Assembly (NCBI RefSeq): GCF_046105845.1
Contig: NZ_CP151004.1
From: Escherichia coli
GTDB taxonomy: Bacteria; Pseudomonadota; Gammaproteobacteria; Enterobacterales; Enterobacteriaceae
Reading direction: 5' to 3' (one strand)
DNA: 64,000 bases
Positions 17,301 to 20,300 of this stretch are shown piece by piece. The stretch's first letter is position 1, and each line of letters opens with the position of its first letter. The position numbers were made by a program.

Positions 17301-20300
17301 TAATCTGATTCGGGCGCGGTTCTCGCGCCCGTTATTAACAGGTCATTTATCGGAAGACGCCTGCCACAGATTCAGCTCGCCATCGGCGATATGCTGATCA
17401 ATCTGCGCCAGCTCCTCGGTGCTAAATGTCAGATTATTCAGCGCCTGCACGTTCTCCTCAAGTTGCTCCGCGCGGCTGGCACCAATCAATACCGACGTCA
17501 CGCGATCATCTTTCAGCAACCAGCTTAACGCCATTTGCGCCATTGATTGTCCACGCTGCTGTGCCATTTCATTCAATAAGCGCAGGCTGTTGAGGTTGGC
17601 TTCGGTGAGCATTTTCGGCGTCAGACCACGAACTTTATTCCCTTCACGATGCATCCGTGAATCTTGCGGAATACCGTTGAGATATTTTCCGGTCAGCAAT
17701 CCCTGAGCCAGAGGAGTAAAGGCAATGCAGCCCACGCCGTTATTTTGCAGGGTATCCAGCAGGCCGCTTTTATCCACTCAGCGGTTCAGTAAATTGTAAG
17801 AAGGTTGATGAATTAACAGCGGAATTTTCCACTCGCGCAGCAACTCGACCATTTTTTGCGTCCGCTCTGGCGAGTAAGAGGAGATCCCGACATAAAGCGC
17901 CTTACCGCTTTGTACCGCATGAGCCAGCGCAGAGGCGGTTTCTTCCATCGGCGTATTTTCATCGACGCGATGAGAGTAAAAGATATCGACATACTCAAGC
18001 CCCATCCGCTTCAGGCTTTGGTCGAGGCTGGCGAGCAGGTATTTACGTGAGCCGCCAGAGCCGTACGGGCCGGGCCACATATCGTATCCGGCTTTGGTAG
18101 AGATAATCAGTTCATCGCGATAAGCGGCAAAATCCTCCCGAAGCAGGCGACCAAAGTTCTCTTCTGCGCTTCCTGGAGGCGGCCCGTAATTGTTGGCTAA
18201 ATCAAAGTGCGTAATGCCTAAATCAAACGCTTTGCGCAGGATCGCACGCTGTGATTCCAGTGCGTTAACGTGACCGAAATTGTGCCATAAACCGAGCGAT
18301 AACGCGGGCAGGCGTAAACCGCTTTTTCCGCAATAGCGGTATTGCATCTGCCCGTAACGTTCGGGATTCGCTAACCAGACCATGACCTCTCCTTTCCACT
18401 ATTCAATTTCGAAACAATGTTTTCAGTTTAGCGATTTACCAGGGGGGATCCCGTAGCATCGCTCACAGTGTGACGAAAAACTGGGCAAAAACACGTGCTT
18501 ATGCTTTGCTTAAAAAAACACCAATTGAGGAGTGCAATGATGCCGCGTCTGACCGCTAAAGATTTCCCACAAGAGTTGCTGGATTACTACGACTATTACG
18601 CTCACGGGAAAATCTCGAAACGTGAGTTCCTCAACCTTGCGGCGAAGTATGCGGTAGGCGGGATGACGGCATTAGCGTTGTTTGATTTGCTCAAGCCAAA
18701 TTATGCGCTGGCGACTCAGGTAGAGTTTACCGACCCGGAAATTGTTGCTGAGTACATCACGTATCCTTCGCCAAATGGTCACGGCGAGGTGCGGGGTTAT
18801 CTGGTGAAGCCCGCAAAGATGAGCGGCAAAACGCCAGCCGTAGTGGTGGTGCATGAGAATCGTGGACTGAATCCGTATATCGAAGATGTGGCACGGCGAG
18901 TGGCGAAGGCGGGGTATATCGCCCTGGCACCTGACGGCTTAAGTTCCGTTGGAGGTTATCCGGGTAATGATGATAAAGGTCGTGAGCTGCAACAGCAGGT
19001 TGATCCAACCAAACTGATGAATGATTTCTTTGCCGCAATTGAGTTTATGCAACGCTATCCGCTAGCGACAGGCAAAGTGGGTATTACCGGATTTTGCTAT
19101 GGCGGTGGCGTATCGAACGCGGCGGCTGTCGCGTATCCGGAACTGGCCTGCGCGGTGCCGTTTTATGGTCGTCAGGCACCCACTGCCGATGTGGCGAAGA
19201 TTGAAGCGCCTTTACTGCTGCACTACGCGGAACTGGATACCCGAATCAACGAGGGCTGGCCCGCTTACGAGGCGGCGTTGAAAGCCAATAATAAGGTCTA
19301 TGAGGCGTATATCTATCCGGGGGTTAATCACGGATTCCATAATGATTCCACGCCCCGTTATGACAAATCTGCCGCCGATCTTGCCTGGCAAAGGACGCTG
19401 AAATGGTTCGATAAATATCTCTCCTGATAGGTTTATCTCTTACGGGATTACGTCTTAAACAAGCATGAAAAAATAGCGTGCGCAAAAGTCGTTCTTTGCC
19501 TAAAATATCGCTATATATGGCAATATATAGCGAATGAGGTGAACGATGAATAACCATTTTGGTAAAGGCTTAATGGCGGGATTAAAAGCAACGCATGCCG
19601 ACAGTGCGGTTAATGTGACAAAATACTGTGCCGATTATAAACGCGGTTTTGTATTAGGCTACTCACACCGGATGTACGAAAAGACCGGAGATCGCCAGCT
19701 TAGCGCCTGGGAAGCGGGTATTCTGACGCGCCGCTATGGACTGGATAAAGAGATGGTAATGGATTTCTTTCGTGAGAATAATTCCTGTTCTACGTTGCGC
19801 TTTTTTATGGCCGGTTATCGCCTCGAAAATTGATCAAACATACGTATTATTTTGCTTTAATTAATTACACTAATGCTTCTTCCCTTCGTTTTAGCGCCCC
19901 GCCGCAGTATCATGATATCGATAACCATAATAAATGTGTGGTAAATGGCGCATCGATCGCATTATTGATTTTGCGATTGAGGCAAAATATATGCCAGGTC
20001 TTCGCAACGGAATAACTATAAATGACTGGAGATAACACCCTCATCCATTCTCACGGCATTAACCGTCGTGATTTCATGAAGCTTTGTGCAGCATTAGCCG
20101 CCACCATGGGGTTAAGTAGCAAAGCCGCTGCAGAGATGGCCGAATCGGTTACTAACCCGCAGCGTCCGCCAGTTATCTGGATTGGCGCGCAGGAGTGTAC
20201 CGGTTGTACTGAATCTCTGCTTCGTGCAACGCATCCAACGGTAGAAAACCTCGTGCTGGAGACTATCTCTCTGGAGTATCACGAAGTGCTTTCCGCCGCC

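What the first reader, a model, noticed from the sequence alone, without database searches (positions are those of the whole stretch)
18495..19427. yghX is an intact 296-aa dienelactone hydrolase-family gene
Established knowledge from memory: yghX is a frameshifted pseudogene in K-12. Seen in sequence: here it is one uninterrupted ORF with a GAGGAG RBS ahead of ATG 18537. Together with the intact gspC/gspD and missing IS5 this places the window in a non-K-12 lineage.
Basis: partly seen in the sequence, partly recalled or inferred. Interest (0 to 1): 0.3.

Follow-up and report, generated by a model that had tools for sequence, protein, structure and literature searches.

The report
Intact yghX hydrolase gene, ordinary allele
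This is the ordinary, unbroken version of the E. coli gene yghX, a dienelactone-hydrolase-type enzyme whose structure is already solved. The laboratory strain K-12 and about a quarter of sequenced E. coli carry a broken copy, so an intact copy is expected and not new.

Summary
Window 18495..19427 (+) is one open frame that scores as a full-length YghX family hydrolase (NCBIfam 586.7 bits against a cutoff of 460; Pfam DLH 1.1e-47). Residues 59-294 are about 98% identical to crystal structure 4ZV9 from E. coli O157:H7 Sakai.

Two corrections:
- The real start is ATG 18540, giving 295 aa. This is the RefSeq start and the K-12 yqhI start. ATG 18537 is ACG in K-12 and most lineages.
- K-12 carries two lesions, not one. 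A 2-bp deletion at window 18648-18649 (codon 37) creates the 47-aa YqhI peptide. A 1-bp deletion at 19009/19010 (codon 157) restores the frame.

The K-12-type 2-bp deletion is in about 1505 of 5426 complete E. coli genomes, and the 1-bp deletion in about 1197. Intact yghX is therefore the majority state and only a weak lineage marker. The window is still clearly non-K-12: 97.6-98.1% identity, no IS5, 8.4 kb extra, intact gspC/gspD.

Function is inferred. It is a Cys186-Asp233-His264 alpha/beta hydrolase behind a 58-residue Tat-type signal (KR here, RR in 27 of 33 relatives), so probably periplasmic. The substrate is unknown. The neighbouring gene gpr carries a premature stop. Low interest; already known.

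The parts
18540..19427 (+). yghX coding sequence, 295 codons plus TGA; full-length YghX family (dienelactone-hydrolase-fold) hydrolase
   Evidence: ORF; NF041440 586.7 bits and Pfam DLH; start shared with the RefSeq N3 annotation and K-12 yqhI; 12-13 synonymous and 0 non-synonymous differences against five other lineages
18527..18532 (+). GAGGAG Shine-Dalgarno sequence, 7 nt before ATG 18540 (4 nt before the non-conserved ATG 18537)
   Evidence: Sequence; invariant in six lineages. The same RBS and start drive the YqhI peptide that was detected by epitope tagging in K-12 (PMC6001520)
18540..18713 (+). Codons 1-58, a Tat-type signal-like N-terminus: conserved n-region (DYYDYYAHG), K27-R28-E-F-L (18618-18632), short h-region, and A56-L-A58. 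Residues 2-37 match Pfam YqhI-like.
   Evidence: Pfam PF23678. RR at this position in 27 of 33 relatives. Relatives with a lipobox plus long linkers, or with plain Tat signals. Crystal construct 4ZV9 starts at residue 57-59
18648..18650 (+). Codon 37 (TAT). K-12 and about 1505 of 5426 complete genomes lack 2 bp here, which shifts the frame and yields the 47-aa YqhI
   Evidence: Alignment; translations; junction count; YqhI sequence
19008..19010 (+). Codon 157 (ACC). K-12 and about 1197 of 5426 genomes lack one C (19009/19010), which returns to the original frame
   Evidence: Alignment; translations; junction count. ATCC 8739 has only the 2-bp lesion
19095..19097 (+). Cys186 codon, the nucleophile in G-F-C-Y-G-G; aligns with Cys123 of ClcD dienelactone hydrolase
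   Evidence: Alignment to 4U2C/1DIN; nearly invariant in relatives
19236..19238 (+). Asp233 codon, the catalytic acid (ClcD Asp171 equivalent)
   Evidence: Invariant column; alignment
19329..19331 (+). His264 codon, the catalytic base (ClcD His202 equivalent)
   Evidence: Nearly invariant; alignment
18384..18539 (.). gpr-yghX divergent intergenic region (promoter region, not mapped). It comes in two haplotypes, and the window shares the N3 type
   Evidence: Alignment. No sigma-70 consensus hit on the + strand

Best explanation
Window 18540..19427 is the intact, ancestral allele of yghX. It encodes a 295-aa precursor made of two parts. The first is a 58-residue N-terminal Tat-type signal: a long conserved n-region, K-R-E-F-L in place of R-R-x-F-L, a short h-region, and an A-L-A cleavage motif. 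The second is a 237-residue alpha/beta-hydrolase domain of the dienelactone-hydrolase family. Its triad is Cys186-Asp233-His264, with Glu106 in the H-E-N-R-G motif.

Shown: the gene is intact, belongs to the family, has the DLH fold, retains the catalytic residues, and is under purifying selection. Also shown: the K-12 allele derives from it by a 2-bp deletion (codon 37) and a 1-bp deletion (codon 157).

Inferred: the folded enzyme is exported to the periplasm by the Tat pathway and cleaved after Ala58. There it hydrolyses an ester, lactone or thioester through an acyl-cysteine intermediate. The substrate is unknown.

The confidence of 0.85 applies to 'intact functional yghX, K-12 derived'. 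The export step alone rates about 0.6.
For: - Intact ORF, RBS and start.
- Family: NF041440 at 586.7 bits (cutoff 460), full length; Pfam DLH 1.1e-47.
- Fold: residues 59-294 match PDB 4ZV9 (E. coli O157:H7 Sakai) at E=6.5e-160. The AF2 model superposes on it at 1.0 A with TM 0.99, and on ClcD 1DIN with TM 0.84.
- Catalytic residues: C186, D233, H264 and E106 align with ClcD C123, D171, H202 and E36. They are invariant or nearly invariant in 33 relatives of 36-68% identity.
- Selection: 12-13 synonymous and 0 non-synonymous differences against five lineages about 2% divergent; 35 synonymous and 6 non-synonymous against L016.
- K-12 lesions. ATCC 8739 has only the first lesion.
- Expression signals: K-12 YqhI, made from the same RBS and start, was detected by tagging (PMC6001520).
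- Export: 27 of 33 relatives have (S/D)-R-R-x-F-L at this position, followed by an uncharged stretch and A-x-A. P0226, P0200 and P0210 have the same N-terminal motif, RR, a lipobox (LLAAC/ILAAC) and 60-90 aa Ala/Pro/Thr linkers. P0153, P0176 and P0167 have plain Tat signals. The depositors of 4ZV9 omitted residues 1-56.
Against: - The window has K-R, not R-R. From established knowledge, KR is tolerated by E. coli Tat and occurs naturally in Salmonella TtrB, but it is weaker.
- The uncharged stretch is only 12 residues (Y37-F48).
- AF2 gives the N-terminal 60 residues pLDDT 92-96 and pTM 0.94. That is unlike normal signal peptides and suggests a folded N-terminal element. For P0226 the N-terminus also scores 75-93.
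- No Tat-signal HMM hit was obtained, even for RR-bearing relatives.
- The consensus scan found no sigma-70-like promoter upstream.
- No experiment on YghX location or activity was found in the literature.
Confidence: 0.85

Rival explanations
1. YghX is a cytoplasmic enzyme, and the first 58 residues are a folded cap or extension of the hydrolase rather than a signal. The RR-like motif in relatives would then be a relic.
For: AF2 places residues 1-60 with pLDDT 92-96 and pTM 0.94. The N-terminus is as conserved as the catalytic domain across Enterobacteriaceae. The motif is KR, not RR. No Tat-signal HMM hit was found.
Against: Relatives separate the same N-terminal motif from the catalytic domain by a lipobox cysteine and 60-90 aa disordered linkers. 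That arrangement is hard to reconcile with a packed cap. Other relatives carry ordinary Tat signals. The catalytic domain alone crystallised as 4ZV9.
Confidence: 0.25
2. The N-terminus is an uncleaved signal anchor, so YghX is tethered to the inner membrane with its catalytic domain in the periplasm.
For: Positive charges (K24, K27, R28) precede a moderately hydrophobic segment. Some relatives are predicted lipoproteins, that is, membrane-tethered.
Against: The segment has low hydrophobicity (mean Kyte-Doolittle 0.75) and is interrupted by K36 and D49. The P-N-Y-A-L-A motif is conserved and looks like a signal-peptidase site.
Confidence: 0.12
3. The ORF is open but the gene is silent or decaying in this strain, as its neighbour gpr is.
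For: gpr next door carries a premature stop. Truncated yghX alleles are common in public assemblies. No promoter consensus was found.
Against: Differences from other lineages are overwhelmingly synonymous. All catalytic residues are kept. The two unusual residues (L175, Y227) lie at positions that vary among orthologues. The RBS and start are intact, and the same signals express YqhI in K-12.
Confidence: 0.05
4. YghX is a polymerase for short-chain conjugated poly-3-hydroxybutyrate. This was proposed from the G-x-C-x-G motif, in work cited within PMC3709699.
For: The G-F-C-Y-G motif is present. The proposal is quoted. There is a weak hit to a PHA depolymerase model (25.6 bits against a cutoff of 150).
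Against: The proposal rests on a short motif common to all DLH-family hydrolases. The fold and triad match hydrolases. No experiment was found.
Confidence: 0.03

Closest known systems
YghX family hydrolase of E. coli (NCBIfam NF041440; e.g. WP_001137768.1 in strain N3; crystal structure PDB 4ZV9 from O157:H7 Sakai)
   Same: It has the same gene, position (gpr | yghX | yghW | hybO), length (295 aa) and start codon. It is 98% identical to the commonest E. coli protein cluster.
   Different: There are only two substitutions relative to N3 (Q175L, F227Y). Exactly this protein is on record in about 1969 blocks of public assemblies.
K-12 yghX pseudogene (b4658) plus yqhI (b4755)
   Same: The locus is orthologous, about 98% identical in DNA, with the same RBS and start.
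   Different: K-12 lacks 2 bp in codon 37 and 1 bp in codon 157. Its only known product is the 47-aa YqhI, made of 36 native residues plus 11 frameshifted ones.
ClcD dienelactone hydrolase (carboxymethylenebutenolidase) of Pseudomonas knackmussii, PDB 1DIN/1ZI8
   Same: It shares the alpha/beta-hydrolase DLH fold (TM 0.84), the Cys-Asp-His triad and the Glu36 equivalent.
   Different: Identity is only about 25%. ClcD is cytoplasmic, has no N-terminal extension, and sits in a chlorocatechol operon. YghX has the 58-aa Tat-like N-terminus and no such pathway context.
Tat signal peptides with a single arginine (KR), e.g. Salmonella TtrB (from established knowledge)
   Same: It has K-R-x-F-L in the place of the twin arginine, followed by an h-region and A-x-A.
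   Different: YghX has an unusually long (26 aa), strongly conserved n-region that AF2 models with high confidence. Tat dependence is untested.

Membership tests
YghX family hydrolase (NCBIfam NF041440) | Score at or above the curated cutoff over the full-length profile | tested here: met
   586.7 bits against a cutoff of 460; profile positions 1-292 of 292
YghX family hydrolase (NCBIfam NF041440) | Orthologous position between gpr and yghW-hyb | tested here: met
   The gene order matches N3 and K-12
Dienelactone hydrolase family (Pfam PF01738) | HMM match above the gathering score | tested here: met
   162.9 bits against 21; profile positions 1-217 of 217
Dienelactone hydrolase family (Pfam PF01738) | Cys-Asp-His catalytic triad plus the Glu that partners the Cys | tested here: met
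   C186, D233, H264 and E106 align with ClcD C123, D171, H202 and E36. They are conserved in relatives
Dienelactone hydrolase family (Pfam PF01738) | DLH-type alpha/beta-hydrolase fold | tested here: met
   4ZV9 at rmsd 1.0 A and TM 0.99; 1DIN at TM 0.84
True dienelactone hydrolase (EC 3.1.1.45) | Hydrolysis of dienelactone to maleylacetate | not testable with these tools
   No assay was possible and no report was found
True dienelactone hydrolase (EC 3.1.1.45) | Location in a (chloro)catechol ortho-cleavage gene cluster | tested here: not met
   The neighbours are gpr, yghW and the hyb operon
Tat-exported proteins | Twin-arginine motif (S/T)-R-R-x-F-L-K | tested here: inconclusive
   The window has S-K-R-E-F-L. 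27 of 33 relatives have RR at the same columns
Tat-exported proteins | Weakly hydrophobic h-region followed by an A-x-A cleavage site | tested here: met
   Y37-F48 is uncharged and A56-L-A58 follows. The P-x-Y-A-x-A motif is conserved. The crystal construct starts just after it
Tat-exported proteins | Export dependent on tatABC | not testable with these tools
   An experiment is needed; none was found

The most novel reading that the evidence does not exclude
The long, conserved n-region of the YghX signal (the 'YqhI-like' module, L-Y-D-x-Y-x-H before the twin arginine) may not be a passive leader. It may be a functional element that docks on the folded cysteine hydrolase before Tat export. 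It could act as a plug against cytoplasmic activity, or as a handle for a dedicated chaperone. That would define a special class of Tat substrates. The K-12 small protein YqhI would be exactly this module set free. AF2's unusually high confidence for residues 1-60 and the module's conservation down to 36% identity do not exclude this reading. Coordinates and PAE could not be inspected.
Probability: 0.12. Interest if true: 0.45.

Novelty: already known. Interest (0 to 1): 0.1.

Why it matters
It matters little. Intact yghX is what RefSeq annotates in most E. coli, its catalytic domain has a deposited crystal structure, and the K-12 pseudogene is well enough known to serve as a routine chromosomal integration site.

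The useful outcomes are bookkeeping ones:
- the correct start codon;
- the exact positions of the two K-12 lesions and their likely order;
- the fact that these lesions are shared by roughly a quarter of complete genomes, so the gene is a poor lineage marker.

The one open biological point is that nobody appears to have tested where YghX goes or what it hydrolyses. The comparative evidence here points to Tat export.

Tried and rejected
- GTG 18495 and ATG 18537 as start codons were rejected because they are not conserved. Orthologues begin MPRL/MTRL.
- The sigma-70 promoter and terminator scan of 18250-19900 found nothing upstream of yghX on the + strand and no more sites than shuffles give.
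- A literature search for dienelactone hydrolase plus twin-arginine returned nothing relevant. Papers mentioning yghX mostly use it as an integration site in metabolic engineering.
- NCBIfam scans of RR-bearing relatives at E<=1 gave no Tat-signal model hit.
- A profile search with the N-terminal 60 residues was run to see whether the module is fused to other enzyme families. It returned only short fragments of the same gene, so it was uninformative on that point.
- Rfam over 17000-27000 found nothing at yghX, only naRNA4 at 26704-26780.
- The strain could not be identified. No complete E. coli genome exceeds 99.1% identity.
- The 2 bp + 1 bp deletions were considered as a possible compensated frameshift that still gives a long protein in K-12. 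This was rejected because the shifted stretch holds many stops, the first after 11 codons.

Full report
**Observation.** The + strand holds one open frame from 18495 to 19427 (310 aa from GTG 18495). GAGGAG sits at 18527-18532, followed by ATG 18537 and ATG 18540. The product matches Pfam DLH (E=1.1e-47) over residues 85-295, with a 'YqhI-like' N-terminus (E=1.4e-21). It also matches NCBIfam NF041440 'YghX family hydrolase' at 586.7 bits, against a curated cutoff of 460, over the whole profile. The ORF is real and is yghX.

**Start codon.** RefSeq starts yghX of strain N3 at the position equivalent to 18540. K-12 yqhI starts at the same position. ATG 18537 is ACG in K-12 and in four other lineages. 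GTG 18495 is GCG in three of them. Orthologues in other genera begin MPRL or MTRL. The gene is therefore 18540..19427, 295 aa, with the Shine-Dalgarno sequence 7 nt upstream.

**The K-12 lesions.** MG1655 annotates yghX (b4658) as a pseudogene, with yqhI (b4755, 47 aa) over its 5' end. Alignment of the window, K-12 and N3 shows two K-12 deletions. The first removes 2 bp at window 18648-18649, in codon 37 (TAT). The second removes 1 bp at 19009/19010, in codon 157 (ACC).

Translations confirm the consequence. K-12 reads frame 0 for 36 codons and then hits a stop after 11 shifted codons. This gives exactly the YqhI sequence that was detected by chromosomal tagging (PMC6001520). Residues 38-157 lie in frame +1, and the frame returns after the second deletion.

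**How common the lesions are.** A 100-bp K-12 query centred on the 2-bp junction matched at >=99% in 1505 of 5426 complete E. coli genomes. An intact allele can reach only about 98% on that query. A 60-bp query on the 1-bp junction matched exactly in 1197 genomes.

Carriers include ATCC 8739, C600, J53 and many clinical and animal isolates. RefSeq flags their yghX as 'frameshifted'. ATCC 8739 has only the 2-bp lesion (886 bp), while AR_0372, 7/2 and MG1655 have both (885 bp). I infer that the 2-bp deletion came first and the 1-bp deletion arose later within that clade.

Laboratory K-12 derivatives are over-represented among complete genomes, so the natural frequency of the lesions is probably lower. 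A profile search with the N-terminus also returned many 87-113-aa E. coli fragments. That points to further independent truncations.

Intact yghX is therefore the majority, ancestral state.

**Lineage.** The window is colinear with K-12 in reverse orientation at 97.6-98.1% identity. It has 8.4 kb (35064-43449) where K-12 has IS5 insH9. Its GspC-like and GspD-like ORFs are intact. The non-K-12 conclusion is sound.

No complete E. coli genome is more than 99.1% identical over the stretches tested. A Logan contig from run SRR28309099 is 100% identical over 6.4 kb.

**What the protein is.**
- Structure: residues 59-294 match PDB 4ZV9 at E=6.5e-160. 4ZV9 is an 'uncharacterized protein' from E. coli O157:H7 Sakai, solved at 2.0 A. 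The AF2 model (pLDDT 96.8) superposes on 4ZV9 at 1.0 A, and on ClcD dienelactone hydrolase with TM 0.84.
- Catalytic residues: Cys186 (in G-F-C-Y-G-G), Asp233, His264 and Glu106 (in H-E-N-R-G) align with ClcD Cys123, Asp171, His202 and Glu36. They are invariant or nearly so in 33 relatives of 36-68% identity.
- Selection: intact alleles in five other lineages encode the identical protein despite 12-13 synonymous differences. A more distant lineage shows 35 synonymous and 6 non-synonymous differences. This is clear purifying selection.
- Window-specific residues: L175 and Y227 lie at positions that vary among orthologues.

**How it probably works.** The N-terminal 58 residues look like a Tat signal.
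- In 27 of 33 relatives, the position of K27-R28 is R-R within (S/D)-R-R-x-F-L. An uncharged stretch and P-x-Y-A-x-A follow.
- Three relatives have the same N-terminal motif, RR, a lipobox cysteine (LLAAC/ILAAC), and then 60-90 residues of Ala/Pro/Thr linker before the catalytic domain. Three others have plain canonical Tat signals.
- The 4ZV9 construct omits residues 1-56.

I infer that YghX is exported in folded form, cleaved after Ala58, and acts in the periplasm as a cysteine hydrolase on an unknown ester, lactone or thioester. It is not in a catechol pathway cluster, so I do not file it as a true dienelactone hydrolase.

**Against the export reading.**
- E. coli has KR rather than RR.
- The h-region is short, at 12 uncharged residues.
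- No Tat HMM hit was obtained.
- AF2 models residues 1-60 at pLDDT 92-96 with pTM 0.94, and the N-terminus of the linker-bearing relative P0226 at 75-93. This is atypical for signal peptides and remains unexplained. I could not inspect the coordinates.

**Comparison with what is known, and verdict.** The gene, its family name, its structure and the K-12 pseudogene status are all already on record. The pseudogene is a routine integration site in metabolic engineering. The finding is correct but ordinary.

**Other observations.** The adjacent gene gpr (yghZ) carries TGG-to-TGA at 17778-17780 (Trp202stop). None of the 5426 complete genomes shares it. The same codon is hit by TGA or TAG in unrelated backgrounds in public assemblies. 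Further items are listed separately.

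Noticed in passing
window 17343..18383 (minus strand); stop at 17778-17780: gpr (yghZ, L-glyceraldehyde-3-phosphate reductase) is split by TGG-to-TGA at codon 202 into 201-aa and 144-aa ORFs. No complete E. coli genome (0 of 5426) matches this 70-mer exactly. The 201-aa fragment is on record in about 50 blocks of public assemblies, with TGA or TAG, in backgrounds 97.3-100% identical. These are therefore independent hits.
   Followed up: yes
whole window; tested 1-8000, 8000-30000, 18400-19500, 35000-43500: No complete E. coli genome in RefSeq is more than 99.1% identical (98.5-98.6% over 22 kb). The lineage is not represented among 5426 complete genomes. A Logan contig (SRR28309099_10, locus L012) is 100% identical over 6383 bp.
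   Followed up: partly
window 35064-43449: This 8.4 kb is absent from K-12, where IS5 (insH9) sits between yghO and yghQ. In other genomes it is annotated as fatty acyl-AMP ligase, serine palmitoyltransferase (spt), LptF/LptG-like permeases and an epimerase. It is present at >=80% coverage in 4063 of 5426 genomes.
   Followed up: partly
window ~26307-26420, between hybF and hybG: A GC-rich insert of about 115 bp (core CCCCTCGCCCCTCCGGGGAGAGGGTTAGGGTGAGGGG) lies inside the hyb operon and is absent in K-12. There is a single copy in the window. An naRNA4/REP-type element lies nearby at 26704-26780.
   Followed up: partly
window 15696|15697, between yghA and exbD: K-12 has 233 bp here that the window and strain N3 lack.
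   Followed up: no
window 18400-18470, gpr-yghX intergenic region: There are two sharply different haplotypes, with 13-17 differences in 156 bp against about 2% in the flanking genes. The window and N3 share one type. K-12, L007, L010 and L016 share the other. ATG 18537 and GTG 18495 exist only in the window/N3 type.
   Followed up: partly
window 19508-19533, 13 nt upstream of yghW (19546..19833): A perfect AT-rich palindrome with an 11-bp stem (TCGCTATATAT-TGCC-ATATATAGCGA) lies between yghX and yghW. It could be an operator or a weak terminator. A constitutive yghW promoter has been reported in this spacer in K-12.
   Followed up: no
window 18540-18713 (YghX residues 1-58); homologue P0226: AF2 models the putative signal peptide with pLDDT 92-96 (pTM 0.94). 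The equivalent region of a linker-bearing homologue scores 75-93. This is unusual for a signal peptide and hints at a structured, functional n-region.
   Followed up: partly
public protein collection, E. coli fragments P0277-P0290 and others: Many 87-113-aa proteins are identical to the YghX N-terminus. This indicates independent truncating alleles of yghX beyond the K-12-type deletions.
   Followed up: no
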